This document shows positions 1,879-28,784 of a stretch of 32,356 nt of DNA, piece after piece. Position 1 is the stretch's first letter. Every line of letters starts with the position of its first letter. The stretch comes from Candidatus Woesearchaeota archaeon (GTDB lineage: Archaea; Nanobdellota; Nanobdellia; Woesearchaeales; GW2011-AR4), in contig JACPMP010000059.1 in NCBI GenBank assembly GCA_016185915.1, forward strand, positions 1-32,356, given 5' to 3'. The notes below the pieces were generated by a model, which worked only from the letters and a program-made list of their open reading frames with translations, was not told the DNA's origin and did no database searches. Made by a program: the position numbers and the translations under genes.

Positions 1879-3270
1879 CTAACCGCATACTGCAACAACC
1901 AGCTTAACTGGCTTTCCATTATATGTAATTATTCTATACATCTTAACTAAAGTTCCGCTTGAGCAAGTAACAGTTGCTTGTGTTTCTGTCTTTACTTGAG
2001 GACATCCTGAAGGACATTCCACATAATTTGCTGCATCATAATCTCTAATCCAGCCAACTTGTGAGTTGTCACAAACAGTTTTAGCTCTCTCGTGTATTTC
2101 AGGGCTAATATCACAAAATGAGCAGCCATTTATGCCGTCACAAGAAGCATGAACAATATTGTCATTGGCAAAAGTACAATCTCTCTCACAAGTTGTGCCT
2201 AAAGTTAAAACAAAATCTTGTATAAGCTGTTGCCCTGATGCAAGACTTATGCTTACTGTTTTAGGAACATAGTTTGGGTAGGAAGCAACTAAGTTGTAAG
2301 CACCACAGTTAACCCCTGTAAAGATGTATGTCCCTTGTGGCGGAGGTGGTGGTTGCTGTCGTGTTGTTGTTGAGCTTACAGTTGTTAAATCTCTCTTTAA
2401 TAGAACATCTGCTGGCGCTAATGGCTGATTGTCTTGATTTTTCACAGTTCCTGTGATTGAGCCAGGTGTGCATACTGGACAATTGTTGTTAGTGCATGTA
2501 ATGCTGCAAGTAGCAGGGCAAGGACCATTATTGGCAGCACCATTGTCACATTGCTCATTGCCTTCTCTTATACCATTACCGCAAACTGCACCTCCGCCTC
2601 CCCCTCCACCGCCATCACCTGTTGGGCAAGTTTCACAATCTGGGTCACAAATTGAACCGCAGTTTGCTCCATAATTGCTTGGGCATACACTATCTATTGC
2701 TCCGCCGCAAAGATAATTTCTGCCGCAGATTGTAACTCCTGGTGTTGGTGGTCTTATAGGTTCAATTGCAATTAAACAATTGTAATCAAAGCCTTGCAGA
2801 CATTGTAAACAACAAGCTTGAGGAGGTAAAGGAGATGCTCTTGGAACTATGCATGCTGAAGTAAAGGGTGGGCATGGGGATTGAGGACATTGTTCTTGTA
2901 GCTGTTCACACTCACCAGTTCTTTCATTATACATGTACCCTCTTGGTGGACAAGCCCCGCATCCTTGCTGGCAACTTTCAAGAGGAGTTGCTAAACATCC
3001 TATCGGCATACCTACTCTTACCTCAACTGTCTGAGGAGTACTCCAATCACCACAAAGATTGTTTAGATTGCAGATTTTCATTTGAACTGTATAAGTTCCT
3101 GGAACAGCGCCAGCAGTTGGCAATCTTTGAGGAGAATTACCTACATTGTGGTACGGAATAATTGTTCCATCCGGTTTTATTATTTGAGCTTCACGATGCC
3201 AAGTGCTTTGAGCAAAAGCATACGGCAGAAGCAAGAAAATTACAGCAAACAAAAATATTCTATTTTTCAT
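1879..3270 (-). CDS. secreted Cys-rich surface protein with CGNG..EQCD Cys-rich repeat, poly-Gly and poly-Pro linkers and a carboxypeptidase-regulatory-like (Ig/beta-sandwich) domain
   Basis: Signal peptide MKNRIFLFAVIFLLLPYAFAQ. More than 50 Cys. CGNGIREGNEQCDNG resembles the Myxococcus-type Cys-rich repeat. GSITGTVKNQDNQPLAPADVLL...YIFTGV...YNLVASYPNYVP resembles CarboxypepD_reg. Confidence 0.75.
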   Translation of the reverse strand: MKNRIFLFAVIFLLLPYAFAQSTWHREAQIIKPDGTIIPYHNVGNSPQRLPTAGAVPGTYTVQMKICNLNNLCGDWSTPQTVEVRVGMPIGCLATPLESCQQGCGACPPRGYMYNERTGECEQLQEQCPQSPCPPFTSACIVPRASPLPPQACCLQCLQGFDYNCLIAIEPIRPPTPGVTICGRNYLCGGAIDSVCPSNYGANCGSICDPDCETCPTGDGGGGGGGGAVCGNGIREGNEQCDNGAANNGPCPATCSITCTNNNCPVCTPGSITGTVKNQDNQPLAPADVLLKRDLTTVSSTTTRQQPPPPPQGTYIFTGVNCGAYNLVASYPNYVPKTVSISLASGQQLIQDFVLTLGTTCERDCTFANDNIVHASCDGINGCSFCDISPEIHERAKTVCDNSQVGWIRDYDAANYVECPSGCPQVKTETQATVTCSSGTLVKMYRIITYNGKPVKLVVAVCG

Positions 3271-3307
3271 TATTCCCTCTTTTTTGTCTAAATTTATTTA
3301 AAACTTA

Positions 3308-4633
3308 TTATCCTACACAAAGACGCTGTCCAATCAAGGTTGCCACAGCGCCATTTAAAATATTTTGTTGAGTTCTTGGTTTATAATATCTCATATCAGT
3401 ATAACCATTTGTAGAATTCCACAAATAGTTTTCTACAGCTGCAGCAACTGCCTCCAATAGTGTAACATTGGTACTTGAACCACCATTCATGCGATGATTA
3501 AAGTTTATGCCTGGAAAAACTGTGTTTCGCCTTTGGCCTTCTAATCGAAAAAAGAGATGCCCTAGTTCATGTTGTTTAGTCATTGAATCAGATAGTATCG
3601 GGAAATAAATAATTGCTCCACTAGTGTAATATCTTCTTGTTGGTGTCCTAGAATCTTGAGGACGAACATGACCAGATATACCACCCCGAACTACATAAAC
3701 AGCATTTTGAATAAAAGAACCATCAGTTGGTATGTCATCGCTTTGGATGTATTCAAACAAGCGATGGAAAGTGCCTGAGTTATTTTCCCAATGCCTGCCA
3801 GCTTCTGCTATGTCGCTTATATTAGCAGCATATATCCTTATTGGGCGAGCTTCAGGAGTCAAAAATCCTCCCAAAACTGTGCTTCCTTTTGGATTGTTGT
3901 CTGGGTTTCTATTTGGGTCATCACCATTTGTGCCTGTCATATACTTAAACCATTTCAATAAATCAAGTGGCTGGCCAGTTTGAGGGTCTATATTTAGTGA
4001 ATCACTACGTTGTCTAATTAGCTGGACGTTTTTAACATTCATCCCTTCTCCTAAATTAACAGGTTGTTGAAAAGGATAAAATCCAGGGTCAAAGTTGCCA
4101 GGCGGCTCTGTCCTGCCTGTAATAAATTCAGGCGCGCCAAATAAATAATTTCCAGACGCAATTTGATTTATTGGAGCAATACTTTGGTCACAGAGATTGA
4201 CATGAAAGCTATAACCCTGATTACTCTGAGGGTCTATTACAAAATATCCTGATGGATCAGTAACTCCTATGTGAATATCAAACTCACTTGGATTTTGAGC
4301 GCTGCTTCCTTGGCGGAATACTACAACTATATGTTCCAGTCCGGTATTCCCATCAGAAGCGCTAAGCGCCCTGCCTTGGAGTGTATTTCTAGTTTGTCGC
4401 GAGTAAAGTAATTTCTCAATGCCATCGTTTGTTTGTGCTTTCTCTATGCCTCCGTCTATAAGAGAATATTGCCTAACAGTTTGTGATTCTGGAAGATACA
4501 ATGGCGGCCCTTCAGATCCATGTGCTTTTGCACGTTTAGAACCCCCTATAATTGGTATGGAACCGACAGTAATAGCCGCGCCTGCTCTTCTTAATAATTC
4601 TCTTCTAGTTAAAAGTCTTTCATCTATGCCCAT
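3308..4633 (-). CDS. Tat-signal secreted protein with HExxH zinc-metalloprotease-like motif
   Basis: N-terminus LLTRRELLRRAGAAITVGS is a twin-arginine signal. HELGHLFF lies near the C-terminus. Long uninterrupted ORF. Confidence 0.65.
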   Translation of the reverse strand: MGIDERLLTRRELLRRAGAAITVGSIPIIGGSKRAKAHGSEGPPLYLPESQTVRQYSLIDGGIEKAQTNDGIEKLLYSRQTRNTLQGRALSASDGNTGLEHIVVVFRQGSSAQNPSEFDIHIGVTDPSGYFVIDPQSNQGYSFHVNLCDQSIAPINQIASGNYLFGAPEFITGRTEPPGNFDPGFYPFQQPVNLGEGMNVKNVQLIRQRSDSLNIDPQTGQPLDLLKWFKYMTGTNGDDPNRNPDNNPKGSTVLGGFLTPEARPIRIYAANISDIAEAGRHWENNSGTFHRLFEYIQSDDIPTDGSFIQNAVYVVRGGISGHVRPQDSRTPTRRYYTSGAIIYFPILSDSMTKQHELGHLFFRLEGQRRNTVFPGINFNHRMNGGSSTNVTLLEAVAAAVENYLWNSTNGYTDMRYYKPRTQQNILNGAVATLIGQRLCVG

Positions 4634-4733
4634 TTTATTAGCGATATATTTTCTGTGTTTTTAAACCTTTCGTTTGTTGCTACTTAAATGTGGTATATTG
4701 ATGATATTTTATTAGTTTTATTCCTTAATCAAG

Positions 4734-5030
4734 TTAAAATACCTCTTTTAAGGATGCATAACCCTCTAAATATTCCTCATAGCTTATAGGTGATTTTATA
4801 CCCAAATCAGCCAAAAGTTCTATTGTTTCTGTTATCGTTAAATTTAATTCTTTTGATGCCCTTCCTATGCTCATTTTTCCTTCTTTATAGTTCTTTAGAA
4901 TAAAATAAATCCAGCCATAATCTATTAGTTTTCTAGCTGCATATGACTTATCCTCATTTTCTTTCTTAGATAGTTCTTTTATAAAGTCTAGCTCTCTTTC
5001 TTTTAATCTTAAAGTTATAATCTTTGCCAT
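4734..5030 (-). CDS. antitoxin-like protein (RHH-like N-terminus plus UPF0175-like C-terminal HTH)
   Basis: The ATG at 5030 is preceded by GAAGGTGA and lies 1 nt after the PIN gene stop. MSIGRASKELNLTITETIELLADLGI resembles UPF0175. The track start at 5045 is a TTG. Confidence 0.6.
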   Translation of the reverse strand: MAKIITLRLKERELDFIKELSKKENEDKSYAARKLIDYGWIYFILKNYKEGKMSIGRASKELNLTITETIELLADLGIKSPISYEEYLEGYASLKEVF

Positions 5031-5031
5031 T

Positions 5032-5529
5032 TTATTCACCTTCAATTTTGTTTTTTGCGTCCTTTATTATATCGTAACTATACCTGCCATATTTCTCTAG
5101 TGCTTTTAGTTTCTCAAATGCAATTTCTTTGTCCAATAATCTATTTTCATAAAGGCGTATCAAAAAGTGTATTGAAGTTGCAAATTTTATATCCAAAATT
5201 TTGCATGCTTTTATACATGGTCCGTCATCAGTAGCGAATAATGCATTTTTTTCCTTAGCTAGCACTAAACCGTCTGCTTCCCCTATTTCTATACCAAAGT
5301 CTTGAATTAACTTAGTAACTTCTGGGTTATTTACTTTTAATACTTGAATTTTATTCTCAGTAATTAATCTATTTATTAATTTTGAATCAAAACTATCTTT
5401 TTTCTTTGTTGTTTCTTCTTTGACATTTTCTGAAAAGATAATTCTGAATTTTTCAGTCAATGCACCCAATAAATGTATCTTGGCTAATAATATCGCTGTT
5501 GAACTATCAAAAACTATTTCTTTCCTCAT
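5032..5529 (-). CDS. PIN-like nuclease domain protein (DUF3368-like), putative toxin
   Basis: VFDSSTAILLAKIHLL...GEADGLVLAKE...FATDDGPCIKACK matches the acidic-residue pattern of the PIN/DUF3368 proteins that usually partner UPF0175. Tightly coupled to 4734-5030. Confidence 0.55.
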   Translation of the reverse strand: MRKEIVFDSSTAILLAKIHLLGALTEKFRIIFSENVKEETTKKKDSFDSKLINRLITENKIQVLKVNNPEVTKLIQDFGIEIGEADGLVLAKEKNALFATDDGPCIKACKILDIKFATSIHFLIRLYENRLLDKEIAFEKLKALEKYGRYSYDIIKDAKNKIEGE

Positions 5530-5629
5530 GTATTACTTTATAATACAATCGTATTATTTAAACTTTTCTGTTCTCCACTACTTCACAAGCATTATGTATC
5601 TTAAAAATGTTTTTTTAATTTTCTATATT

Positions 5630-6691
5630 TCAGGATTCTGCCCAATAAACAGTCAAATCAGTTCCTGCATCGACAGGGTCTGGAGTAATACGCATATTGC
5701 TTATTTGGGGTAGCGCATTCACTTGCACAGTAGCTGTTGCTCTTGGTGAAGAGCATGCTCCAGTATTTTGGCAAGCTTCTCCTCGGATGTTATAAGTGCC
5801 AGTAGGTGATGTAGCTGGAATTGTGAAAGATACTCCTTGTGAACAAGTGCCTGTTGGACCTAAAATCCAGCTGGTTGATCCTGGAGATTGGTATTCAAAA
5901 CCGCAAACATCAGCATTAGCATAGCCAATAAAATTAATTGCTACTAGTTGTCCGATTATCGCTGGATTTGGACTGGCAGAAATTCTTTGCAAGGTGGGAG
6001 CTGATCCCAGACGAGGAGATGACCTGCTGTTGCATTGTCCATTCAAACAACCATATTGACAGTTTTGCGCAACAATTGTACCTCCACTGCAATACAAATG
6101 AGTATTACCTTCACATCCACTAAAATCATTAGCATAGCACTCTCCTCTATAAACACACTCTGTGCTTGAGGAACAACAAGCTGTTGTTCCATCATAATTG
6201 CTTTTACTTAATTTTTCTCCTACACATTTACCAGTGCAAGGACTGATGGCACCGGTATCCCTACAGCCGCATGATTCAGCGCTATATTTTGTTGGCGGCG
6301 GTGAGCCGATAGAGCAACTTCCCGTGCATTTATCAATTATACCACAAGAATTACATGTATTGCAATTGCAAGGATTTGCAGCATAAACACATGTAGGAAC
6401 ACAAGAGCCTCCACTACAAACGCCTGGACCACTGCCTGTAGAGCATGCTGCGCCATTATTATAAACAGTGTAACACGAACCACAATCATAGCATGAGAAG
6501 CATGTGACAGTTGTCCACCAGCAATGCCCTTCTTTATCACAATCCAATCCGCCGCAATTATAGAAATTACAGCAAGTCGCTGAATCACATTGTGTCCAAC
6601 TGCACTGGGCAAAGGATGTCTCACTTTTATATACAAAACTATATAACAAGAACACTAAAATCAATATGATGAATTTAGAGCGCAATTTCAT
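5630..6691 (-). CDS. secreted Cys-rich surface protein with C-terminal Ig-like domain (paralog of the 14745-15635 N-terminal module), apparently ending inside a second Ig-like domain
   Basis: Signal peptide MKLRSKFIILILVFLLYSFV. Cys-rich N-terminal half. Domain APTLQRISASPNPAIIGQ...NADVCGFEY aligns with the domains at 14745-15635 and 14539-14763. Confidence 0.75.
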   Translation of the reverse strand: MKLRSKFIILILVFLLYSFVYKSETSFAQCSWTQCDSATCCNFYNCGGLDCDKEGHCWWTTVTCFSCYDCGSCYTVYNNGAACSTGSGPGVCSGGSCVPTCVYAANPCNCNTCNSCGIIDKCTGSCSIGSPPPTKYSAESCGCRDTGAISPCTGKCVGEKLSKSNYDGTTACCSSSTECVYRGECYANDFSGCEGNTHLYCSGGTIVAQNCQYGCLNGQCNSRSSPRLGSAPTLQRISASPNPAIIGQLVAINFIGYANADVCGFEYQSPGSTSWILGPTGTCSQGVSFTIPATSPTGTYNIRGEACQNTGACSSPRATATVQVNALPQISNMRITPDPVDAGTDLTVYWAES

Positions 6692-7617
6692 GAAAATTCA
6701 CCCTTTAGGAAAATTAAATTATTTTCTTTCTCAGAACCTTCGCTTGAATATATTGTATTTCCAATTTCATCTACAAGGAAAAGCTTGTGTGTAATTTTTG
6801 TTTCACCTGGCTGAATTCGAAACATTTTTTGTCCATTTGGACCTGTTGCTTCATTCAATGGTGGAGCTCCTGTTAGCTTCATAACTGGTGCGCCCGAACC
6901 CTGATTAGCAGAAGATGTTCTGATTATTCCTGACCTAAAATCAAGAAGACTATCTGCATTCTTTGTATAGGTTGAATTTAATTTTATCAAAACTTCATAT
7001 ACATTATTCAACTGACAGTTTGAGCAAGTATCAACAGTGCAATCATATGAAATTTGCCTATTCACCTTGTTAATATCTGGATTTGCGTCTTTACCGTTTG
7101 TTGTATCATATACTATCTTGCCATTTTTTGAAAACTTATTTTTTATTTCATTCAACGGTGTTGGAATAATCTTCTTATCTTCCACAACAATAATTGCATC
7201 ATCAGCCTTTATCTTTTGATTGCATACCTCTACAAAGCCCAAATCAACCTCTGCTCTCAGCACTTCCTTTCCATCATAAACAACAGAGCCATAATTTTTT
7301 ATTTTATAATTTGCATATTTTTCATTAAGTGCCTTGTTTATTATGCTCAACTGCTTTTCTGAAGTAAGCTGTTCCCCTGCCGCTCCTCTTTTTTTGCTTA
7401 CATTCTGTATTATCAAGAAAAATAAAATTAAAAGAATAACAATGGAAACTATAACTAATGGTTTGTATTGGTAATTTCTTATGCCAGATTCTTTTGCAGC
7501 CTCTTCTATCCTCTTGGCAGAATGGCCTTTTTCCAGTAATTTTTTTTTGAGAATATCAAATGGCACACCCTTTTTTCTACCTAGCTTAAGATATTCAACT
7601 ATTCTTCTGTCTGCCAT
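6688..7617 (-). CDS. single-pass membrane protein: N-terminal cytoplasmic helical module, TM helix, ~235-aa extracellular domain
   Basis: Overlaps the downstream gene start by 4 nt. N-terminal RRIVEYLKLGRKKGVPFDILKKKLLEKGHSAKRIEEA is followed by the TM helix LVIVSIVILLILFFLII. Confidence 0.65.
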   Translation of the reverse strand: MADRRIVEYLKLGRKKGVPFDILKKKLLEKGHSAKRIEEAAKESGIRNYQYKPLVIVSIVILLILFFLIIQNVSKKRGAAGEQLTSEKQLSIINKALNEKYANYKIKNYGSVVYDGKEVLRAEVDLGFVEVCNQKIKADDAIIVVEDKKIIPTPLNEIKNKFSKNGKIVYDTTNGKDANPDINKVNRQISYDCTVDTCSNCQLNNVYEVLIKLNSTYTKNADSLLDFRSGIIRTSSANQGSGAPVMKLTGAPPLNEATGPNGQKMFRIQPGETKITHKLFLVDEIGNTIYSSEGSEKENNLIFLKGEFS

Positions 7618-7802
7618 TTATACCTCTTTTTTGAAATTAGGACGTAGGAATACATAAAAACTCTCCGAAGCTGAATTAATCTTCTTGCTCCAAACGAACA
7701 TTAGCATAGCCCTTCCTATGGGCACTTACCTGCCACGCAAATGAAACATCTCTGCCATCAATTGATTTGACAACACAAGTAAATTGCCTCATTTTGTTGT
7801 AT

Positions 7803-8924
7803 TTATTGAATACTTACTAAAACAAGCACTTGCCCATTTTCTCCAACAGGTGTTAAGACTTTTCCTACAATTTTACCTTCACAATTACCTAAACATGACT
7901 TGGCTTTGCCATTATAAGAGCTTATTAACAAATCTCCTGGCTTAACATTTCCTTCTACATTTACCGGCACTCTTCCTGAAATTGCAAGTTTTATTGAGTT
8001 ATCTCCTTCATATTCATTGCCTATAATCATGTGAGGTTTTGTGCTAACAATACCTATAGCAAGATTACTATTGCTATCGCATTTTTTAACAACACCGCCA
8101 TTTTGTATAGTGCTTTTTTCTGCATCTATGCATACAACATCGCCTGCTTCTGGTTTAATTCCAGAAAATTTGACCCATTCTGCAATATCAATTGCACCTC
8201 CTGTTCTTGTTGTAGCAAATGAGTTGCCAACTACGTTTAGGTCACCACTTACCCATAAATTTTTTCGTGCCCAAGTTTGTCCGCTTCCTTCACCAACATT
8301 GACATCACCCATCAATACAATTGTTCTGCTTTGAGCCCCTGGCAAAGCACTATTCTCAGTCCAGCCAATTACATTTCCTGCATTAGCTTGATCAATTCCC
8401 GGCAACCCATTTGTCTCTCCTTCGACATTTGAATCCATTATCCATTTATGATTCGCAGCATCCCATCCTGCTAAAGTAAGTCTATTGCCTGATACGTAAA
8501 AGTTCGCTTGAGGACTAGCGCCTATTCCATAAATCCCAACAGTGCTGTAAGATGGAACAGCAAATCCTATTTGTCCTGAAGTTGAATCCCAGCCAACACC
8601 ATAAAATGTTACACCGCCTCCAACTGCAGCAGCATCTCGTAAAGCCCTCTGCCTTTCCCCTAAGCCCATGAATACATATGGAGGTTGAGATGTAGAAGGG
8701 GATTGGATATACATGTTTCCGTTAGCCACAATTGCGCTGTTCGATGCAATTGGACCATTAACGCTTAATAATGGACCAGTCGTACTACCGCATGTATTGC
8801 TCAAAGTTACTTTTCCTGGAAATGTGTAATCACAAGAACCAAAACTGCATGCAGTCTGAGCATATGCCCCTACCATCAAAATCAAAGAAAAAACAACTCC
8901 GCATAAAAATATTTTATTTTTCAT
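7803..8924 (-). CDS. secreted protein, unknown function (Gly-rich beta-rich body plus a C-terminal small barrel-like domain)
   Basis: Signal peptide [23 protein letters not shown]. The C-terminus DIAEWVKF...GDVVCID...[14 protein letters not shown]...[19 protein letters not shown]...GKIVGKVL is a pattern I recall from bacterial and phage fibre-like surface proteins. I cannot name the family. Confidence 0.65.
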
Positions 8925-10659: not shown

Positions 10660-11070
10660 TTAGAAAATGCTTCCCAAGTCCTTTAAGTTGCCTGAAGCAT
10701 TTTCAAGTTCACGAGCTGTTGCTTCTTGATTTTCTTGTGTCGCTTGTTGAGATTGAGTAGTTTGAGCATTTTGCGAAAACCCCGGTGTTTTATCTGCCTC
10801 TAAGCTTGATTTTGAAGTCAAGTGAATGTAGGTAACAACCGTAAATACCAATACGACAATAAACAAGCCCGCAGCCAGAGCTGCATAGTTATGGGCAGGG
10901 TGAGGAGCTTCCAATAGCCCAAGAGTCTTTGGCTTGGATATTTCATCAATTAATTCATCAACTATTTCAGGATCGTATTCCTTTTTCAATAGCGCGTTTT
11001 TTATTTGGCTGGTTGAGTAGCCATTATGCAAAGAACTCCTTGCCCATTCAACCAATTTTTCGTTTGTCAT
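10660..11070 (-). CDS. single-pass membrane protein with N-terminal cytoplasmic helical module
   Basis: The ATG at 11070 is preceded by AAGAGGT. LVEWARSSLHNGYSTSQIKNALLKKEYDPEIVDEL is followed by the TM helix AALAAGLFIVVLVFTVVTYI and a Q/T-rich tail. Confidence 0.6.
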   Translation of the reverse strand: MTNEKLVEWARSSLHNGYSTSQIKNALLKKEYDPEIVDELIDEISKPKTLGLLEAPHPAHNYAALAAGLFIVVLVFTVVTYIHLTSKSSLEADKTPGFSQNAQTTQSQQATQENQEATARELENASGNLKDLGSIF

Positions 11071-11119
11071 TTTGATAACCTCTTTTAGATTTTGTTGCAA
11101 AACTTATTTAAATATTTAT

Positions 11120-11821
11120 TTATTTCAAACCTTTAAAAGCTTCATCAACATCATCTTTGCTATAATTATGCGTTAGCAAGGCATTTCTTATCTGCTCTTT
11201 GCTGTAGCCCTTTCTCAGATTAGTTGTTACATAATTCTTTAATGTCAAAATGCTTTGCTGTTGAACTTGGCTCATAAGAGCTTTGTGGTCATTTTTTCTC
11301 TTAACCTCGATATATGTTAAAAAGCCGAATATCAGCAAAAGAGGCAATGCGATGTAGAGCCATAAAAGGTTTAATGGGTTTGTTTGTACCGCCTCTAAAG
11401 GGATTTCTAAAAGTTTTTTGTTTTTATTATCATAAATGTTGATGAGTTTGGCGTTTGAATAATAAGGAACAGAGAGTTTAAAAGTTAAATCTTCAGGCGT
11501 GCCTTGAACTTCATCTTTTGTAACATCTTTTAATAATAATGCCCCTGGTTGTATATTAAAATTCATTGATTTTAGTACTTCATTTTCAGACGAAACAACA
11601 TCAAGCCTGTAATCAGCATCTGGCTGAGATAAAGTATTTGTTGCTGTGCCATCAGCCACTTTAACATCAACTAAAGATAATGAATCTGTCAAGAGTTGTT
11701 TTTTATAATTAAAGGTTAGAGAATATACTTTTCCAGTTTCTTGTGCATTTACAATTACCGATAATAATAGCACACATAACAATAATATAATACCAAACGT
11801 TATTTTGTTTATTTTTGACAT
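11120..11821 (-). CDS. type I membrane protein: signal peptide, ~150-aa extracellular domain, TM helix, C-terminal cytoplasmic helical module
   Basis: The start abuts the stop of 11822-14617. C-terminal LKNYVTTNLRKGYSKEQIRNALLTHNYSKDDVDEAF matches the module in 10660-11070 and 6688-7617. Confidence 0.65.
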   Translation of the reverse strand: MSKINKITFGIILLLCVLLLSVIVNAQETGKVYSLTFNYKKQLLTDSLSLVDVKVADGTATNTLSQPDADYRLDVVSSENEVLKSMNFNIQPGALLLKDVTKDEVQGTPEDLTFKLSVPYYSNAKLINIYDNKNKKLLEIPLEAVQTNPLNLLWLYIALPLLLIFGFLTYIEVKRKNDHKALMSQVQQQSILTLKNYVTTNLRKGYSKEQIRNALLTHNYSKDDVDEAFKGLK

Positions 11822-14617
11822 TTAAATCACATTAATATTAATATCAACTGTGTTTGTTCGTGAAACTTCTACAGTTGGCTGCGAGCCTGAAGCAATTATT
11901 GCAAATGCCCTATAACGCCCTGGCGTAATAGGACTTGTTATAGGAGCTGTTTGAAATTCCAAATTACCTACCAAATCTGTTCCTCCAACTCTCTGGTTGT
12001 TCAAGGGTCCCTCGGACGTACCTTCTCTTATAAGAGAAAGATACACTATATGCCCTGAAGGAGCGTTTGAAATCTTAACATTAACTGGTTGTCCAGTAGT
12101 CAGCTGTACTAAACCACTTTGCTGATTGTTAATCCTAAGTATAGAGGTTGGTGTGGGGGCTACTGTATAGAAAACATGATTGCTGTCAACTGGTACTAAC
12201 CTCACTGCATCTGTTGCAGTAATCCATGCTTCCCACTGCTCTGGTAGTCCACCTTCTCTTACTAAGGATACTGGTCCTAGTTCAAAAGTACAAGGTGTGC
12301 CTACGCAGCTACCAATACCGCCATAAGGAACATCATTTTGTCGCACCCCATTTAATTTTCTATTTAAAGTTACACTGGTGCTGAGTAGTCCAGTAGTTGA
12401 AGCAACTGTAACTCTTATTCTTTCGCCTGGAACATAAGATCTTTTATCCAAACTTAGTGCAACTCTATATGGGGGCAATTGTGTGGGTGAATTTGGGTCC
12501 CTTACATTTACATAAAATGGAGGAGATATAAATCTATTTTTATTAGGTGAATTATCTATTGCTTCAAACTGAATTACATGAGTGCCTATACTATTTGCTG
12601 GAAGTGATGATGACTGCTCTATCCTGCATGTTACTTCACCACCAGATGTGGTGGGTAAAGTAACAGAAGGTGTGCACGAGCGAGGATTGTTATTTACAAG
12701 AATTCTGATTGAGTCAATTCCGCTTGGGTCTCTAACGCGAGCAGTAGCTGTAAATGGTTGAGATGGGTTAACAATGCCATCATTCTGGATAGCTTGACCA
12801 CCTTGTGTTATGCCTGCCTCTATAACCTCGGGTGGTGTTGTGTCTTGTGGAGTAGGAGCAGCAGTAGGGGGGGGAATGGGGGTAGGAGCTCTTGGAGTTA
12901 TCTCAAGCGTAACCGTTCTTCTTGCGCAATTGCCTGTACCTATGTTATTAATGCTAACAACTCTTACATTTCCATTAGCATAACTAAATTGGTTTCCTGA
13001 TGCGTACAAATTCTCTGCAATTGTAGAACTTCCGCTGGACAATCGTAGAACTACTCTAGGTAGCGTACTTCCTTCACTATTCGGAGGAGTATCACTACTC
13101 GGTCCAACAACTAATTTTACACCAGAGCCAAAATCCAATTCTGTACCAGAAATTTGAGTTGTACCCCCAATACTTTGGCATAATGTGTACCTCCTGGGAC
13201 TAGTAGAACTATAATCATAAGCAATCCTTGATTCACATAATGGGCATTCTTCAACTGGAGATATACTAGCAGGATTTGAAGGAACAGTAAAGGTTATTCT
13301 TTTCCTAAGTTCATCGACATTACAATTAGAAACACCAATAGGGTCAACCCAAAAGGTATATGTAGAGCCAGGATTGACTGGAACATTTGGTACAGGAGTT
13401 GTTGTTTGTATACCATTTTCACAGACATAATGTTGTGGACAATCAGAAGAACCAGGTACAGCATCAATATGATTAACAGTAACAACTTCGCCCTCATATG
13501 AGCCAATTAACCTTCTGGTATATGTGCCACTTAACCTTATGTTGTATGAAGTTGCACCTGGAACACTTGCCCAAGATAAAGTTACCTCACTATTTGGTCG
13601 TAAAGTAACGGTTGGTGTGTTGATAGTGTTTGGATTTATGGGGCATTGAGGAGCTGCAGGTGGAGCAGTTGGTGCTGCGCCTGGAGCAGATGGAGGTGGC
13701 GTTGCACTTGTCCTTAGCGCACTGCAATCATTGATGTTAAAGTAAGAACTAAGACCACTGCAATCTAAATCGTTTGGGGTACTAACAACTTGAACATTAT
13801 TTCCACAATCTCTTGTTGATTCGATCCCATTAATTATGTCAGTTACACTCAAAGCATTGCAAACTGCACGGCAGAAGCATGGTTTGATTTTATTATCTCT
13901 TTCTGTGTCTGTGATAGGTGTGCGGCCTTGTATTATTTGCCTAATCCTAGAAACCACTAAATTTTTGTCAGAATTTATTTTAATTTGTAATTGAGCTAAA
14001 TCTGCATTTCTCTGTGGTCTAACATTATTGTTTATCGCATTCGCAATTCTTTGTATTACTTCATCAGCTCTAGCTAATATGGCATTGGCTTGGGTCTCCC
14101 ATCTATCAAAATCAGTTGGAGGAATTATTCTTCTTTGAGTTACTGTAACAATCTTCAGTTCTGTTGCAGAAAGACCATCATTCCTGTTTTTTGCAGTGAC
14201 ACTTATAATGTATGCGTCTTGTGCATTTTCTGGGACAAAAGATTCAATTCCACACCAGAAACCTGTTGGCTGGGGACTACACTGCCTTTCATCACTTCCA
14301 CTTATCACATCTCTAAAAGTGGCACCTTGTTGTATTCTTGCATTTATTGAATTTCTATCAACATCTGTGCCTGTTATTCGAGCAGTAAATATAATATACC
14401 CGCCTGCTACAACTGTATCAGATGTTGCAATTTCTATTCTAGGCGGAGGTGCTTGCTGTACTGTTAATCTTTTTCTTATGAAAGATGAGAATCCTGCTGC
14501 ATTCCATGCAGCTCCTTCAACATCATATTCTAATAAGGTTATTCCCTGCGGCAGTTGAGGCACAAGAGTATTCCCTGCGGCAGTTGAGGCACAAGAGGCG
14601 TGTCTAAGCCTGAGCAT
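11822..14617 (-). CDS. C-terminal 931-aa fragment of the giant surface protein (Ig/Fn3-like repeats, Pro/Thr/Ala linkers)
   Basis: Long open frame. SWASVPGATSYNIRL is an Fn3-like signature. The first ~17 aa after the annotated Met (MLRLRHASCASTAAGNT) are out-of-frame readings of upstream coding sequence, including part of the duplicated 29-mer. Confidence 0.7.
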   Translation of the reverse strand: MLRLRHASCASTAAGNTLVPQLPQGITLLEYDVEGAAWNAAGFSSFIRKRLTVQQAPPPRIEIATSDTVVAGGYIIFTARITGTDVDRNSINARIQQGATFRDVISGSDERQCSPQPTGFWCGIESFVPENAQDAYIISVTAKNRNDGLSATELKIVTVTQRRIIPPTDFDRWETQANAILARADEVIQRIANAINNNVRPQRNADLAQLQIKINSDKNLVVSRIRQIIQGRTPITDTERDNKIKPCFCRAVCNALSVTDIINGIESTRDCGNNVQVVSTPNDLDCSGLSSYFNINDCSALRTSATPPPSAPGAAPTAPPAAPQCPINPNTINTPTVTLRPNSEVTLSWASVPGATSYNIRLSGTYTRRLIGSYEGEVVTVNHIDAVPGSSDCPQHYVCENGIQTTTPVPNVPVNPGSTYTFWVDPIGVSNCNVDELRKRITFTVPSNPASISPVEECPLCESRIAYDYSSTSPRRYTLCQSIGGTTQISGTELDFGSGVKLVVGPSSDTPPNSEGSTLPRVVLRLSSGSSTIAENLYASGNQFSYANGNVRVVSINNIGTGNCARRTVTLEITPRAPTPIPPPTAAPTPQDTTPPEVIEAGITQGGQAIQNDGIVNPSQPFTATARVRDPSGIDSIRILVNNNPRSCTPSVTLPTTSGGEVTCRIEQSSSLPANSIGTHVIQFEAIDNSPNKNRFISPPFYVNVRDPNSPTQLPPYRVALSLDKRSYVPGERIRVTVASTTGLLSTSVTLNRKLNGVRQNDVPYGGIGSCVGTPCTFELGPVSLVREGGLPEQWEAWITATDAVRLVPVDSNHVFYTVAPTPTSILRINNQQSGLVQLTTGQPVNVKISNAPSGHIVYLSLIREGTSEGPLNNQRVGGTDLVGNLEFQTAPITSPITPGRYRAFAIIASGSQPTVEVSRTNTVDININVI

Positions 14618-14763
14618 GGCGCTTCTGCTGGATCACCAAATGATGCATCTGTTGTCCTCTTGAAACGGAAATAGCATTTATCAGCACGCTGAGGATTAAC
14701 AAAGCTTATCCTTAATGGTTGGCCAGGACTAACTGTGGTAGGAGTTATTGTAAAGTCTTGCAA
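14539..14763 (-). CDS. middle fragment (second Ig-like domain) of the disrupted giant surface gene, not an independent gene
   Basis: TTG 'start'. ITPTTVSPGQPLRISFVNPQRADKCYFRFKR aligns with ISAAPNPVDLGQSITISFGNPQNADFCGFQYKR in the upstream ORF. Confidence 0.55.
   Translation of the reverse strand: MQDFTITPTTVSPGQPLRISFVNPQRADKCYFRFKRTTDASFGDPAEAPCSGLDTPLVPQLPQGILLCLNCRRE
14540..14597. repeat. exact 29-bp tandem duplication (2 copies of TATTCCCTGCGGCAGTTGAGGCACAAGAG)
   Basis: Read directly: 14540-14568 is identical to 14569-14597. The length is not a multiple of 3, and LVPQLPQGI is encoded twice in different frames. Confidence 0.95.
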
Positions 14764-15635
14764 TGTTGGTGCATTTGGGCATTTGGTGGAGGTTGTCGGA
14801 CCGTTAGCGTAAATGTTGGTCTGTAATCAGAGTATCTCCCATCATTTTTGAATGCAGCTCCTTTTATTATATAGTCACCAGTTGGGAAACTTGATGTTAT
14901 TATACCTGAGCTTATGTCAGAGCATGGTCCTGTAATTGCAGGGGTTGGTTCAAATACTGACGAGTCTGGTCTTTTGTATTGGAATCCACAAAAATCTGCA
15001 TTTTGTGGGTTTCCGAAAGAAATTGTTATGGATTGTCCAAGATCTACAGGATTTGGTGCTGCTGAAATGCTTAAAAGTGTTGGTGGATAAGTACAAACTC
15101 CACTTTGACAAGTGCCACCAGAGCCACAAGGAACACTGCTTATTGGAGATTGACATTGGAAGGTTGTATAATCACAATTTCTCTGGGAAGAAGAGCAATA
15201 ATTTGTATTATAAGGAGGTTCATTTAAAGCAATACCGCTTGAGCAATAGGCATTTGAGCATACACCTTGAGGATAGCAGCCCGTTACACAAGATGGACCT
15301 TTTAGTTGTCCTCCGTAATCTGAGCACTGTTGCTGTGTAAAACATCCGTCTCCAAGGCTATAGTATCCAGTTGGAAGGCTTGGCGAATAAGCAATATAGC
15401 ATGCAGAGCTTATATAAGTATAGCCGAGATTAACGCAATCTTCAGCTGTGCATGGTCTAGGTGTAACAACATCTCTACAAATAGGGGTAGATGAAACACA
15501 CCATCCTGTTGAAGTACATCCACCATAGCAGGGGTTAGTTGTATAACACCCAGCATCATAAGCAAAAATGAAAGAACTATTTAAAGAAAGAGAAATTAAA
15601 ATAATCAAACTCAACAAAAAATTTCTTTTTATCAT
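14745..15635 (-). CDS. N-terminal fragment of the giant surface gene: signal peptide, Cys-rich region, first Ig-like domain
   Basis: The ATG at 15635 gives MIKRNFLLSLIILISLSLNSSFIFA. The track start at 15713 is a TTG upstream of the signal peptide. Confidence 0.7.
   Translation of the reverse strand: MIKRNFLLSLIILISLSLNSSFIFAYDAGCYTTNPCYGGCTSTGWCVSSTPICRDVVTPRPCTAEDCVNLGYTYISSACYIAYSPSLPTGYYSLGDGCFTQQQCSDYGGQLKGPSCVTGCYPQGVCSNAYCSSGIALNEPPYNTNYCSSSQRNCDYTTFQCQSPISSVPCGSGGTCQSGVCTYPPTLLSISAAPNPVDLGQSITISFGNPQNADFCGFQYKRPDSSVFEPTPAITGPCSDISSGIITSSFPTGDYIIKGAAFKNDGRYSDYRPTFTLTVRQPPPNAQMHQHCKTLQ
14771..14786. repeat. exact 8-bp tandem duplication (GCATTTGG x2)
   Basis: Read directly. It lies exactly at the frame switch between ORF 14745-15635 and ORF 14539-14763. 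Confidence 0.95.
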
Positions 15636-16026
15636 CTTTTGTTTGTAAAATGTCGAAATTTTCCCTAGTTTATAACTAGTGACTGGAAGCCAATTTGCAA
15701 GTGTATTGTGCAAAATTTCCGAGCATGCTCAAAAACCTCCAGTAATGTCATTGCACATTAAGCTTCCGCAACATTCCACCAGTCTATGACTAGCGGTTTT
15801 TGACATATTAATTTATAGCAAAGGTATCAATTGTAAGTGCATTATTATTTATTCTCCAATTACAAACTGGTTACCCTTATCAAATTTGCTTCCAAAGGTC
15901 ATTCCAATTTTTTGAATAAATTTTTGTTGTAAATATTTTTTGGAGTCGTTTTGGATTTTTGATGTTTCTACTGTCTTTGATTACTTAAATTGTTTAATGT
16001 AGTTAAAATTTTGTTAAACCATCACC

Positions 16027-16404
16027 TTAATCCTCGGCAAGTGCCCATATAGCTTTTATGGTAATTATCAATGCGGCTGGCAAAACAAATATAGTTATGT
16101 TTCCAACAGCAGTCGCCAAAAACAACCCAAATTCTTTTGGCGGAATTAAAGTCAATCCAAACCTTGCAGTGCCTATCACAATCAGCGACGTTGTTGCGAT
16201 CAAAAAAGGCGTTGTTTCTTCTTTTTTTATGTTTAAAAATCCAACTAAAGTGCCGAGAATAATTAATGAAGTAGTTACAGGCACAATCCATTCCTTAGGT
16301 ACAAGCCCGGCTATAAATGCAAATGCCAAACCAAAAATAAAAATCCAATGGCCTAATTTGTTTTTTTCAATAGTTTGCTTGCTTTTCATTTTAACTTCTT
16401 TCAT
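16027..16404 (-). CDS. small multi-pass membrane protein, unknown function
   Basis: The ATG is preceded by GAGGTGA at 7-nt spacing. Three to four hydrophobic helices. The antisense ORF 16058-16441 is judged spurious. Confidence 0.6.
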   Translation of the reverse strand: MKEVKMKSKQTIEKNKLGHWIFIFGLAFAFIAGLVPKEWIVPVTTSLIILGTLVGFLNIKKEETTPFLIATTSLIVIGTARFGLTLIPPKEFGLFLATAVGNITIFVLPAALIITIKAIWALAED

Positions 16405-16538
16405 TTTAATTTCACCTCAATTTTTTATTAAGCACAATTAATATATCCTCAATCAATTTACTGTTTAAACCTTACTTTTTAAAGTTACAATACTTAATTG
16501 CAAATAAATCTTTTGAATGAAATTAACAATCATTGATT

Positions 16539-17042
16539 TTAAACAACACTTGAGAATACTTCTCCTTTTACTTGTCTTGCATAAGATGTGCCGCTAGCTA
16601 CTGTATTATAAGTAGTAGTCACTAAAACTTTTCCTTTTTCACCGGCAACAAAGCCAGCAGGGCCTGAGTTGCAGTTACTCCATAACAACTCATTAATCTG
16701 GCCTGAATTCATTGTTATTGGGACTGATTGGGGTGTTGAGCAAGAATAAACAGTTGTGCCTTCACTTCCCAAAGTTAGAGAAGAGATTTGTATTGCTTCA
16801 CCGACATTGTTTTTGAGCCGCACTTTGAATGTACCTGCTGTTGCTGATATTTGATAATCAAGGCATTGAAACTCTGCTCCAAAATTGCATCTATTTGGCA
16901 AAATTTTGCTTGGGTTTAATATTCCAAAATAAGCAAGAGTGCCTATCATAATCAATATAACCAGAAAAGCCCAGCCATAAGTAGTAAGAAATTCTAATGC
17001 AGCTTGACTTTTTTTAAATAGCTTATGTGGAGAGTTATCCAT
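16539..17042 (-). CDS. archaeal type IV pilin-like protein (class III signal peptide), tandem paralog A
   Basis: KKSQAALEFLTTYGWAFLVILIMIGTLAYFG. About 75-80% aa identity by eye to 17059-17553. Confidence 0.8.
   Translation of the reverse strand: MDNSPHKLFKKSQAALEFLTTYGWAFLVILIMIGTLAYFGILNPSKILPNRCNFGAEFQCLDYQISATAGTFKVRLKNNVGEAIQISSLTLGSEGTTVYSCSTPQSVPITMNSGQINELLWSNCNSGPAGFVAGEKGKVLVTTTYNTVASGTSYARQVKGEVFSSVV
16924..17006. repeat. 83-nt block identical to 17444-17526 (N-terminal pilin segment of the two tandem paralogs)
   Basis: Read directly. The two copies are offset by 520 bp, and the flanking gene sequence is clearly diverged. Confidence 0.9.
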
Positions 17043-22250: not shown

Positions 22251-22300
22251 CCTTAATTCCAAAGTCTTTGGAAAACAAAAAACTTTGGAGGGTGATTAAA

Positions 22301-23128
22301 ATGAAAATAAGGATTAGGAAAAATCATGAATTAAGATTGAAAGCTTTTGATTTGATGAATGAACTTAAAAGTAATAATCTTACTCAAAAGGAGGTTATAG
22401 ATAAAATCTATGCAGAATTTGGTGTACCGAGAGGAACTTTGTATAGTTGGTATGCAAATAGAGATTATCCGTATGGGCGAAGAGGTAGAGAAGTTACTAA
22501 AAATCCTGAGTTATTCTATGTTTTAGGTGCCCTATTAGGAGATGGGTGTATTTATTACTGGAAGAAACTCAATAGGCATATTATAAACATTGCTGGTGAA
22601 AAAGAGTTTACAGAGAAATATGCAGACAAATTATCAAAATGCACCAGAAACAGAGTTAAAAACTATATAAACAGGAACAATAATGTTTGGTTTGTAAATA
22701 TTGGCAACCTTCAACTTTATTTTCTATTCCAACAAATAAGAGGAGACCTCAAAGTATTACGTAACCTTCTTGCAAAAGGAGATTACTACAAAAATTCTCT
22801 ACAGCTAATAGAAGGTTTTTTTGACGCTGAGGGTTGTATTAAGATTATAAAAGAAAAAGTGAGAAAAACTCCTAAAATATGCCCGGATATTTGCTGTACA
22901 AATTATGAAATTTTAGAATTGATAAGAAAACTTTTACAAGAGCATCTAAATATTGAAGCAAGATATTCAATTCAAAAAGCAGATGGTATCAAAAATAAGA
23001 AAGTTGCTTATCATTTAAGAATTTATAAAAAGGAATTTGTAAGAAAATTTTTTGAAAATATCAGTACAATAAAGTTAAAAAATGAAAAAATTGCTTATGT
23101 TGAAAATTGGTTAAACAATGGTTTATGA
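22301..23128 (+). CDS. free-standing double-motif LAGLIDADG homing endonuclease with N-terminal HTH region
   Basis: GGAGGGTGA lies 5 nt upstream of the ATG at 22301. Motifs LGALLGDGCIY and IEGFFDAEGCI are present. The N-terminal LTQKEVIDKIYAEFGVPRGTLYSWY is HTH-like. Confidence 0.8.
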   Translation: MKIRIRKNHELRLKAFDLMNELKSNNLTQKEVIDKIYAEFGVPRGTLYSWYANRDYPYGRRGREVTKNPELFYVLGALLGDGCIYYWKKLNRHIINIAGEKEFTEKYADKLSKCTRNRVKNYINRNNNVWFVNIGNLQLYFLFQQIRGDLKVLRNLLAKGDYYKNSLQLIEGFFDAEGCIKIIKEKVRKTPKICPDICCTNYEILELIRKLLQEHLNIEARYSIQKADGIKNKKVAYHLRIYKKEFVRKFFENISTIKLKNEKIAYVENWLNNGL

Positions 23129-25443: not shown

Positions 25444-25444
25444 T

Positions 25445-27726: not shown

Positions 27727-27796
27727 CTTTCCCCATAAGTATATAAAGCTCAATTTAATAAGTTTTCCGTTTCGTACGCCCCTCCCAAATAAATTA

Positions 27797-28392: not shown

Positions 28393-28439
28393 TCATTCTA
28401 AAGAAATAAAGTTTGATTAATAAATATTCTGAAAAATGA

Positions 28440-28784
28440 TTACCCAACAGAATGCCCGCATCCACAAGTTGTCTTGACATTTGGATTATTTACCTTAAAT
28501 CCGGCATTTGTTAATGAATCTATATAATCAACTGTTGAGCCTTTCATAAAGGCAATACTTTCTGGGCTTATAAACATCTTTACTCCTTTTTCTTCAATTA
28601 CCGTGTCATTTTCCTTAGGAGCTTTCTCTAAGCCAATGTCGTACATATAGCTTGAACAACCTCCCGGAGTTACGCCTACTCTTAATCCGTAATCAGGTTT
28701 ATTCTCTTTCTCAAGCAACGATTTCACTTTATTTGCTGCTTTTTCAGTCAAACTTATTATAACTTCTTTTGTTTGTTGTTCCAT
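28440..28784 (-). CDS. HesB/IscA-family iron-sulfur cluster insertion protein
   Basis: LTEKAANKVKSLL..., GLRVGVTPGGCSSYMY, and C-terminal CGCGHSV. Confidence 0.85.
   Translation of the reverse strand: MEQQTKEVIISLTEKAANKVKSLLEKENKPDYGLRVGVTPGGCSSYMYDIGLEKAPKENDTVIEEKGVKMFISPESIAFMKGSTVDYIDSLTNAGFKVNNPNVKTTCGCGHSVG

What the first reader, a model, noticed from the sequence alone, without database searches (positions are those of the whole stretch)
14540..14786. One ~1,258-codon adhesin-like gene is split into three ORFs by two exact tandem duplications (8 bp and 29 bp)
**Observed in the sequence:**
- ORFs 14745-15635, 14539-14763 and 11822-14617 are consecutive on the minus strand, in three different frames.
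- GCATTTGG is duplicated at 14771-14786.
- A 29-mer is duplicated at 14540-14597.
- Each duplication sits exactly at a frame switch.

**Reconstruction:**
- Deleting one copy of each restores a single frame of 3,777 nt.
- The restored protein junctions make domain sense.
- The second Ig-like domain (APTLQDFTITPTTVSPGQPLRISFVNPQRADKCYFRFKR...RLTVQQAPPP) then parallels the first (PPTLLSISAAPNPVDLGQSITISFGNPQNADFCGFQYKR...TLTVRQPPP).
- LVPQLPQGI is currently encoded twice.

**Interpretation (inference):**
- There are no other stops across ~3.8 kb, so the lesions are recent.
- Short tandem duplications can revert by slippage. This could therefore be reversible ON/OFF switching of a major surface protein, very recent pseudogenisation, or population heterogeneity collapsed into a consensus.
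Basis: partly seen in the sequence, partly recalled or inferred. Interest (0 to 1): 0.75.

Follow-up and report, generated by a model that had tools for sequence, protein, structure and literature searches.

The report
Surface-protein gene split by two duplications
One large secreted surface-protein gene of a groundwater Woesearchaeota genome bin is cut into three annotated genes by two exact tandem duplications, which look more like a scaffold-join assembly error than a biological on/off switch; only the raw reads can decide.

Summary
A 29-mer (14540-14597) and an 8-mer (14771-14786) are each exactly doubled. They sit at the two frame switches between three minus-strand ORFs, annotated in GenBank as HYX00_02575, 02570 and 02565. 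Removing one copy of each gives one 3,777-nt ORF (1,258 aa).

The one-gene reading is well supported. The only homologue is an intact 1,139-aa protein from a Hainich groundwater MAG. It aligns without gaps at 65% identity across both lesion sites. An AlphaFold model places both lesions in a single beta-sandwich domain.

The on/off-switch reading has no support here. There is no repeat tract, no sign of mixed alleles, and two non-compensating lesions would need two reversions.

Both duplications lack microhomology, lie 210 bp apart, and are the only such lesions in 32 kb. The contig very probably comes from an uncurated pipeline (MEGAHIT contigs joined by the IDBA-UD scaffolder) for which join errors are documented. 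I rate assembly artefact about 0.55, real recent inactivation about 0.3, and reversible switching under 0.1.

Runs SRR12113424 and SRR12113383 carry this or a near-identical strain, so the test is simple.

A side finding is that the affected domain has about four times lower synonymous divergence than the genome background. It is also present as an identical pair in the homologue.

The parts
11822..15635 (-). Whole gene as deposited (3,814 nt; 3,777 nt or 1,258 aa after removing one copy of each duplication). It encodes a secreted multi-domain surface protein.
   Evidence: single ORF after repair; intact homologue P0002 spans the junctions.
14745..15635 (-). ORF A, 296 aa, GenBank HYX00_02575 / MBI2652328.1. 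It holds the signal peptide, a Cys-rich region, beta-sandwich domain 1, and then an out-of-frame tail QMHQHCKTLQ.
14539..14763 (-). ORF B, 74 aa, TTG start, GenBank HYX00_02570 / MBI2652327.1. It holds the first two-thirds of domain 2, then an out-of-frame tail LLCLNCRRE.
11822..14617 (-). ORF C, 931 aa, GenBank HYX00_02565 / MBI2652326.1. Its first 17 residues are out of frame. It then carries the last third of domain 2 and the rest of the protein. It has no signal peptide of its own.
14771..14786 (.). Exact 8-bp tandem duplication GCATTTGG x2 (lesion 1, +2 frame). It lies at the domain 1/domain 2 linker (PPPNA|PTLQ). On the coding strand its downstream end (window 14771) abuts the base (14770) homologous to the first base of the identical repeat core in the homologue.
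14540..14597 (.). Exact 29-bp tandem duplication (lesion 2, +2 frame). It lies in a loop of domain 2 (LVPQLPQGI) between predicted beta-strands.
14569..14778 (.). 210-bp piece bounded by the two duplication junctions. Under the artefact model it is a short contig whose ends overlapped its neighbours by 29 and 8 bp.
Evidence: Sequence geometry.
14441..14775 (-). Beta-sandwich domain 2 (repaired residues 285-386). It carries both lesions. It is 65% identical in protein and 77% in DNA to the homologue, with unusually low synonymous divergence.
14776..15086 (-). Beta-sandwich domain 1 (residues 184-284), a paralogue of domain 2.
15561..15635 (-). Predicted N-terminal signal peptide MIKRNFLLSLIILISLSLNSSFIFA.
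   Evidence: Read from the sequence. This is an inference; no predictor was run.

Best explanation
**What it is.** This is one gene for a secreted protein of about 1,258 aa.
- The N-terminal half holds a signal peptide, a Cys-rich N-terminal region, three FN3/Ig-like beta-sandwich domains, and a helical/Cys-rich segment.
- The C-terminal half holds a Pro/Thr linker and further beta-rich domains.
- The organism is a groundwater Woesearchaeota (DPANN) archaeon.

**What the deposited contig shows.** The gene is cut into three CDS by two exact tandem duplications of 8 bp and 29 bp. These bracket a 210-bp piece inside domain 2.

**Most likely cause.** The two duplications are the two ends of one local assembly error.
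1. The de Bruijn graph broke in this domain because of strain variants or a repeated module.
2. That left a short contig that overlapped its two large neighbours.
3. The paired-end scaffolder joined the three pieces without removing the overlaps exactly, so each overlap appears twice.

On this reading the organism carries an intact gene and makes the full-length surface protein.

**Shown:** the duplications, the one-gene reconstruction, the domain context and the pipeline.

**Inferred:** that the junctions are unsupported by reads, and the exact way the scaffolder produced them.
For: 1. **One gene.**
   - The repair gives a single stop-free 3,777-nt ORF.
   - The only homologue, P0002, is an intact 1,139-aa ORF. 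It aligns without gaps at 65% identity over 102 residues covering both lesions.
   - The AlphaFold model of the repaired segment gives beta-sandwiches with pLDDT around 80. Lesion 2 falls between strands of domain 2.
   - Foldseek matches tandem FN3 arrays at E about 1e-9.
2. **Lesion geometry.**
   - These are the only two exact tandem duplications of 8 bp or more in coding sequence across 32 kb.
   - They are 210 bp apart. Neither has any microhomology.
   - That pattern fits two ends of one mis-joined piece better than two independent mutations.
3. **Provenance.**
   - A Logan contig from SRR12113424 is 100% identical to window 15762-16745.
   - Neighbouring run SRR12113421 belongs to PRJNA640378, the He et al. 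2021 project.
   - That project assembled with default MEGAHIT 1.2.9 and then used the IDBA-UD scaffolding function. No error curation is described.
4. **Documented error class.**
   - Chen et al. 2020 report local assembly errors as prominent in IDBA-UD output.
   - They describe duplicated sequence on both sides of scaffold joins, and 13 errors in a 1.13-Mb genome.
   - The COBRA paper advises against IDBA-UD scaffolds because of scaffolding errors.
   - It also states that graph assemblers break at repeats and strain variants, leaving overlapping contig ends.
   - 29 is one of MEGAHIT's default k values.
5. **A reason for a graph break at this spot.**
   - In the homologue this very domain is present twice, 293 bp 100% identical.
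   - A near-identical strain (99.6%) with different neighbouring genes co-occurs in the project's samples.
Against: - No reads were available, so junction support is untested.
- The published description of the IDBA-UD duplicate-at-join error has Ns between the copies. This window has no N at all.
- That IDBA-UD trims overlaps by an estimated distance is my recollection of its code, not a tested fact.
- MEGAHIT contigs themselves cannot contain a junction that is absent from reads, so the whole model rests on the scaffolding step.
- The 8-bp overlap matches no k value.
- The link between the window and PRJNA640378 is strong but indirect.
- Independent evidence shows that this module does undergo real duplication or conversion in nature.
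Confidence: 0.55

Rival explanations
1. The duplications are real and present in most cells. The gene was inactivated very recently, either by pseudogenisation or by selection for loss of a surface protein. Cells then make at most a secreted 296-aa N-terminal fragment. Alternatively, two different loss-of-function alleles co-exist in the population and the assembler stitched them into one consensus.
For: - MEGAHIT contigs can only contain junctions seen in reads, so the duplications are real if no scaffolder join lies here.
- The window has no Ns, so there is no visible scaffold join.
- The same module shows real structural change in the homologue, as an identical 293-bp pair.
- The module also shows signs of recent exchange.
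- Strain heterogeneity exists in these samples.
- There is no other stop in 3.8 kb, which fits very recent events.
Against: - Two rare events of the same unusual type, within 210 bp, with nothing else wrong in the gene, is improbable for independent mutations.
- Neither duplication has the microhomology expected of slippage.
- After the first frameshift there is no selection to explain a second one so close by.
Confidence: 0.3
2. This is reversible on/off switching (phase variation) of the surface protein. Spontaneous tandem duplications frameshift the gene and precise excision restores it, as in pneumococcal capsule genes.
For: - Exact tandem duplications can be lost precisely by slippage or recombination between the copies. 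The mechanism is documented for cap3A, cap8E and tts (Waite et al. 2001, 2003, cited).
- The target is a large secreted protein of an episymbiont, the kind of gene where switching is useful.
- The ORF is otherwise pristine.
Against: - Two non-compensating lesions need two independent reversions, which makes a poor switch.
- An 8-bp pair reverts rarely.
- There is no multi-copy repeat tract.
- No alternative allele exists in any public assembly or protein set searched.
- The only homologue has no such lesion.
Confidence: 0.08
3. The true locus differs from both the deposited and the 'repaired' sequence. For example, domain 2 could be present in two or more near-identical copies, as in the homologue. 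The assembly would then have collapsed them and left garbled joins.
For: - The homologue carries two copies of this module, identical over 293 bp with a 303-bp period.
- The 8-bp duplication abuts the base homologous to the start of that repeat core.
- Repeats longer than k and longer than the reads are classic causes of collapse.
Against: - No coverage data are available.
- The second junction is not at a module boundary.
- The 210-bp spacing is not the module length.

This is a sub-case of the artefact explanation, and its probability is included there.
Confidence: 0.15
4. There are three genuine separate genes, or one gene expressed through two programmed ribosomal frameshifts.
For: GenBank annotates three CDS. 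Both shifts are formally -1.
Against: - The pieces cut one beta-sandwich domain in two places.
- The 74-aa and 931-aa ORFs have out-of-frame ends or starts and no signal peptide.
- The homologue is a single ORF and aligns without gaps only after the duplicated copies are removed.
- No slippery heptamer lies in the correct frame at either site (read from the sequence).
Confidence: 0.01

Closest known systems
Local assembly errors at IDBA-UD scaffold joins (Chen et al. 2020, Genome Res, PMC7111523; also noted in the COBRA paper, PMC10914622)
   Same: - The source is a short-read metagenome bin.
- Scaffolding was done with IDBA-UD.
- Sequence is duplicated on both sides of a join.
- The error lies inside a repeat-containing protein gene.
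- The result is an apparently broken CDS in a public database.
   Different: - The published description has Ns between the duplicated flanks, and there are none here.
- The scaffolder was applied to MEGAHIT contigs.
- Read support was not examined.
Phase variation by spontaneous tandem duplication in Streptococcus pneumoniae capsule genes cap3A, cap8E and tts (Waite et al. 2001 Mol Microbiol; 2003 Microbiology; cited via PMC4243769)
   Same: - Exact tandem duplications of non-repetitive sequence lie inside an ORF.
- They shift the frame.
- Precise loss of one copy would restore the gene.
- The target is a surface structure.
   Different: - There, a single duplication occurs per OFF variant, and ON and OFF cells are demonstrably mixed and interconvert.
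- Here there are two simultaneous non-compensating duplications, no evidence of mixture, an archaeal host, and no experiment.
Simple-sequence-repeat contingency loci (Neisseria, Haemophilus, Campylobacter and others)
   Same: A frameshift in a surface-protein gene caused by repeat copy number.
   Different: Those loci have tracts of many copies of 1-9-nt units that slip at high rate. Here each unit is present only twice and the flanks have no tract.
Multi-domain FN3/Ig-like secreted proteins of DPANN and CPR episymbionts
   Same: - A signal peptide.
- Tandem beta-sandwich domains.
- A Cys-rich region.
- Fast evolution and domain shuffling between homologues.
   Different: - No Pfam, NCBIfam-type or PDB sequence family is matched.
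- Only two members are known.
- No membrane anchor was seen.
- An adhesion function is untested.

Membership tests
Scaffold-join / local assembly error | The sequence comes from a scaffolded, uncurated short-read assembly. | tested here: met
   Logan contigs tie the strain to SRR12113424 and SRR12113383. Neighbouring run SRR12113421 belongs to PRJNA640378. The methods were MEGAHIT plus the IDBA-UD scaffolder, with no curation step described. The link is indirect.
Scaffold-join / local assembly error | Duplicated sequence lies on both sides of a join, classically with Ns between. | tested here: inconclusive
   Exact duplicates are present at two points 210 bp apart. There are no Ns anywhere in the window.
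Scaffold-join / local assembly error | No read supports the junction sequence. | not testable with these tools
No independent assembly of this stretch was found.
Tandem-duplication phase variation (pneumococcal cap3A type) | An exact tandem duplication inside an ORF causes a frameshift, and removing one copy restores the ORF. | tested here: met
Tandem-duplication phase variation (pneumococcal cap3A type) | ON and OFF alleles co-exist and interconvert in the population. | not testable with these tools
   Needs reads or cultures. Only one allele exists in public data.
Tandem-duplication phase variation (pneumococcal cap3A type) | A single lesion per OFF variant, so that one excision restores function. 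| tested here: not met
   There are two lesions, each +2, summing to +1. Repairing either alone leaves many stops.
Simple-sequence-repeat contingency locus | A tract of many copies of a short unit or homopolymer in or before the ORF. | tested here: not met
   Tandem Repeats Finder and an exact scan show exactly 2.0 copies of each unit and no tract.
FN3 / Ig-like beta-sandwich repeat proteins | A beta-sandwich fold in the repeated domains. | tested here: met
   AlphaFold model: domains 1 and 2 have pLDDT around 80 and are all-beta. Foldseek top hits are tandem FN3 arrays at E 1e-9, although global TM is only 0.25-0.35 because domain orientations differ.
FN3 / Ig-like beta-sandwich repeat proteins | Sequence membership in a curated family (Pfam fn3, Big, PKD and similar). 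| tested here: not met
   No Pfam family at E <= 0.01. Only sub-threshold hints appear at E <= 5. The PDB sequence search gives nothing below E 0.19.
Three independent genes | Each ORF is a self-contained unit, and orthologues keep the same three genes. | tested here: not met
   The homologue is one ORF. The ORF boundaries cut a domain.
Diversity-generating retroelement target | A reverse transcriptase and a template repeat nearby. | tested here: not met
   No RT domain was found in the ORFs that were scanned against Pfam (not every ORF was scanned). No second copy of the region was found within 11800-15800, and the 29-mer occurs nowhere else in the window.

The most novel reading that the evidence does not exclude
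The duplications are real and heterogeneous in the population. On this reading a DPANN episymbiont switches a host-facing surface protein off and on by gaining and losing tandem duplications. The switching occurs inside a beta-sandwich module that is itself recombination-active: it was exchanged between lineages recently and is duplicated identically in the only homologue. This would be the first tandem-duplication phase variation described in an archaeon.
Probability: 0.07. Interest if true: 0.7.

Novelty: new member of a known kind. Interest (0 to 1): 0.27.

Why it matters
**If it is an artefact** (my leading view), the practical value is curation. Three GenBank 'hypothetical proteins' (MBI2652326-28) should be one 1,258-aa protein. 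The case also illustrates how scaffold joins seed false gene fragments into protein databases.

**If the lesions are real**, they mark either the very recent loss of a large surface protein in an episymbiotic archaeon or, less likely, a switch. Either would say something about how DPANN cells modulate host contact.

**The side observation may be the more durable lead.** One beta-sandwich module has about four times lower synonymous divergence than the genome background, and it occurs as an identical tandem pair in the sister genome. That points to exchange of modules among surface proteins of related DPANN lineages.

Tried and rejected
1. **Independent assemblies of the lesion region.**
   - Exact-protein look-ups of the 931-, 296-, 74- and 233-aa ORFs found nothing outside the GenBank record.
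   - Logan contigs of the same or a near-identical strain exist, but they are about 1 kb long and do not reach the gene.
2. **More orthologues.** Three searches found only the Hainich contig and generic Ig-like repeat proteins:
   - the genome contigs and metagenome-contig scans;
   - an exhaustive HMMER search with the homologue;
   - two word-index searches.

   The word-index search is erratic. It missed proteins known to be in the database, so its negatives carry little weight.
3. **Family assignment.** Pfam, PDB sequences and Rfam gave nothing, and there are no tRNAs.
4. **Programmed frameshifting.**
   - No slippery heptamer lies in the correct frame.
   - The homologue alignment is gapless only without the extra copies.
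5. **Transposon-excision footprints (target-site duplications).** An 8-bp footprint is conceivable, but no element makes 29-bp duplications, and no element is nearby.
6. **Diversity-generating retroelement.** There is no reverse transcriptase and no template repeat.
7. **Slippage between flanking direct repeats as the origin.** Neither duplication shows any microhomology.
8. **Run accession.** SRR12113424 was looked for in He et al.'s supplementary files and not found as text. The link was made through a neighbouring accession instead.

Full report
**Observation.**
- The window is a 32,356-bp, 35% GC contig without Ns.
- At 14540-14597 a 29-mer (TATTCCCTGCGGCAGTTGAGGCACAAGAG) is present twice head to tail, with no mismatch. 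At 14771-14786 GCATTTGG is present twice.
- A scan for exact tandem pairs finds only three with units of 8 bp or more in the whole window. The third is an A/T-rich AATTTTTT pair at 24100.
- First-order Markov resampling of the window (which preserves dinucleotide frequencies) gives 0.94 eight-bp pairs per window and essentially none above 12 bp.
- The 29-bp pair is therefore far beyond chance. The 8-bp pair is notable only for where it lies.
- Three minus-strand ORFs in three different frames meet exactly at these two places: 14745-15635, 14539-14763 and 11822-14617.
- Removing one copy of each repeat yields one 3,777-nt ORF with no internal stop. Removing only one does not.
- Both repeats are exactly 2.0 copies with no flanking microhomology. 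Their junctions are 210 bp apart. Each adds +2 to the frame, so they do not cancel.

**Identity of the sequence.**
- The 931-, 74- and 296-aa ORFs are GenBank proteins MBI2652326.1, MBI2652327.1 and MBI2652328.1 (HYX00_02565, 02570 and 02575). They are 'hypothetical proteins' of a Candidatus Woesearchaeota archaeon, each known from this contig only.
- A Logan contig assembled independently from run SRR12113424 is 100% identical to window 15762-16745.
- A Logan contig from SRR12113383 is 99.6% identical to 28419-29211.
- Run SRR12113421 is cited as source data of the Californian groundwater study of He et al. 2021, BioProject PRJNA640378.
- The window therefore almost certainly comes from that project.
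[quoted passage not shown] No correction of local assembly errors is described.

**One gene, not three.**
- The repaired protein has a typical signal peptide and a Cys-rich region of about 160 aa.
- These are followed by three beta-sandwich domains, a helical segment, a Pro/Thr linker, and further beta-rich domains.
- It matches no Pfam family and no PDB sequence.
- Only one real homologue exists in more than 15 billion proteins and in the genome and metagenome contig collections. It is P0002, an intact 1,139-aa ORF on a 10.9-kb contig of a Hainich groundwater Nanoarchaeota/Woesearchaeales MAG.
- The two contigs also share a 71%-identical amino-acid-permease/methyltransferase fusion gene, so the organisms are related.
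- P0002 aligns to repaired residues 285-386 (domain 2) without a single gap at 65% identity. The alignment runs straight through both lesion sites.
- At the DNA level the window shows precisely an 8-nt and a 29-nt insertion relative to both copies of the module in the homologue.
- An AlphaFold model of the repaired 321-aa stretch gives all-beta domains 1 and 2 with pLDDT around 80.
  - Lesion 1 lies in the linker before domain 2.
  - Lesion 2 lies in a loop between strands 172-174 and 186-197 of the model.
- Foldseek finds tandem FN3 arrays (fibronectin, contactins) at E about 1e-9.
- Hence the 74-aa ORF is two-thirds of a domain. The 931-aa ORF begins with 17 out-of-frame residues and then the last third of that domain, without a signal peptide.
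- 'Three genes' and 'programmed frameshifting' can be dismissed.

**Real lesion or assembly error?** This is the crux, and reads are needed to settle it.

*Arguments for an error:*
- The two lesions are of the same rare kind and are the only ones in 32 kb. They bracket a 210-bp piece, as two ends of one mis-inserted short contig would.
- Neither has the microhomology that slippage normally uses, whereas untrimmed contig overlaps have arbitrary ends.
- The pipeline includes a paired-end scaffolder applied to foreign contigs.
- IDBA-UD output is reported to be prone to local errors.
  - These include duplicated sequence at joins and errors in repeat-containing protein genes.
  - About 13 errors were found per 1.1 Mb.
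- The COBRA authors advise against IDBA-UD scaffolds for this reason.
- De Bruijn assemblers break at repeats and strain variants and leave overlapping ends. 29 is one of MEGAHIT's default k values, and 200 bp is, from my knowledge of MEGAHIT, its minimum contig length.
- There is a specific reason for a break here.
  - In the homologue this module occurs twice with 293 bp of 100% identity.
  - A 99.6%-identical strain with a different gene neighbourhood co-occurs in the samples.

*Arguments against an error:*
- There is no N in the window.
- The documented duplicate-at-join error has Ns between the copies.
- MEGAHIT alone cannot invent a junction.
- My model of how IDBA-UD trims overlaps (by an estimated distance) is from memory.

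*If the lesions are real,* they are very recent, because there is no other defect in 3.8 kb. They would leave at most a secreted 296-aa fragment.

*A switch is the least likely real scenario:*
- Two non-compensating lesions need two precise excisions.
- There is no repeat tract.
- Nothing indicates mixed alleles.

My estimates are: artefact 0.55 (including a collapsed-repeat variant), real recent inactivation or co-existing loss-of-function alleles 0.3, reversible switching 0.07-0.08, and other explanations about 0.05.

**Comparison with known systems.**
- Mechanistically the closest biological precedent is capsule phase variation in pneumococci by spontaneous tandem duplications in cap3A, cap8E and tts (Waite et al. 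2001, 2003, cited).
  - The 'exact duplication, frameshift, precise loss restores' feature is met.
  - The 'one lesion per OFF variant' feature is not met.
  - 'Mixed interconverting alleles' is untestable here.
- It is not a simple-sequence-repeat contingency locus.
- The closest technical precedent is the IDBA-UD local assembly error.

**Side finding.**

| Region compared between the two genomes | pS | dS | Other |
|---|---|---|---|
| Domain 2 | 0.34 | 0.45 | identical codons at 51 of 66 conserved residues |
| Other aligned parts of the same gene | 0.65-0.68 | 1.5-1.8 | |
| Permease orthologue | 0.69 | 1.84 | minimum pS 0.52 in any 102-codon window |

- This one module was therefore shared between the lineages, or homogenised, much more recently than the genomes diverged. 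Alternatively its DNA is constrained.
- Together with the identical pair in the homologue, it marks the module as recombination-active.
- That raises the plausibility both of real structural polymorphism and of assembler confusion at exactly this spot.

**Verdict.**
- The switch interpretation is unsupported, and an assembly artefact is the leading explanation.
- Whichever explanation holds, it belongs to a known kind. Interest is low to moderate, and a decisive test on named public runs is cheap.

Noticed in passing
window 14441-14775 (minus strand) versus L001 6568-6873: Domain 2 of the surface protein has about four times lower synonymous divergence from the Hainich homologue (pS 0.34) than the rest of the gene (0.65-0.68). 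The syntenic permease orthologue has pS 0.69. Runs of 12 and 9 consecutive codons are identical. This suggests recent inter-lineage exchange or gene conversion of this module, or constraint at the nucleotide level.
   Followed up: partly
L001 6573-7168: In the homologue the same module is present twice. The copies are 100% identical over 293 bp and separated by a 10-bp spacer (period 303). Because the spacers differ, it is not a clean tandem duplication, so it looks like gene conversion or a very recent duplication. The window's 8-bp duplication abuts the base homologous to the first base of this repeat core.
   Followed up: partly
window 28419-29620; L005 1-493: A Logan contig from run SRR12113383 is 99.6% identical to window 28419-29211, then diverges completely. 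It carries a SufC-like ATPase gene upstream of the rhodanese and Fe-S assembly genes. The window instead has about 400 bp of non-coding sequence and a large plus-strand ORF. This is either strain-level rearrangement or a chimeric join in the window near 29212.
   Followed up: partly
window 29622-32354 (+): An open reading frame of at least 911 aa runs off the 3' end of the contig. It has Kelch repeats and an FN3 domain (fn3 E 5e-14) and is another large secreted-type protein.
   Followed up: partly
window 1879-8924 (minus strand): A run of six ORFs of 165-463 aa with almost no Pfam matches; the only ones are a CarboxypepD_reg domain in 1879-3270 and a sub-threshold UPF0175 hit in the small ORF 4734-5045 interspersed among them. 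Together with the split gene, this forms a block of roughly 14 kb of orphan, probably extracellular proteins.
   Followed up: no
window 10660-11100 and 11120-11821 (minus strand): Two adjacent small membrane proteins end or begin with the same motif (GYS.xQI.NALL...Y..). It gives a weak RecX three-helix hit (E 8e-5). The second gene starts immediately after the stop of the large surface-protein gene, which suggests co-transcription.
   Followed up: no
window 24520-27753 (minus strand): A type II restriction-modification pair. It consists of a CfrBI-like endonuclease (25445-26365) and an N4/N6 DNA methylase with an N-terminal HEAT-repeat extension (26362-27753). A PP-loop ATPase lies next to them.
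   Followed up: no
window 22268-23128 (+): A free-standing LAGLIDADG homing-endonuclease-like ORF. It lies between a PolB-exonuclease-like gene and an Fe/Mn superoxide dismutase gene, and is not inside an obvious host gene or rRNA.
   Followed up: no
(tool behaviour): The word-index protein search failed to return proteins that are in its own database and are 100% identical to long parts of the query. P0136 and P0006 were missing; P0001, P0006 and P0002 were missing. Negative results from this tool should not be read as absence.
   Followed up: yes
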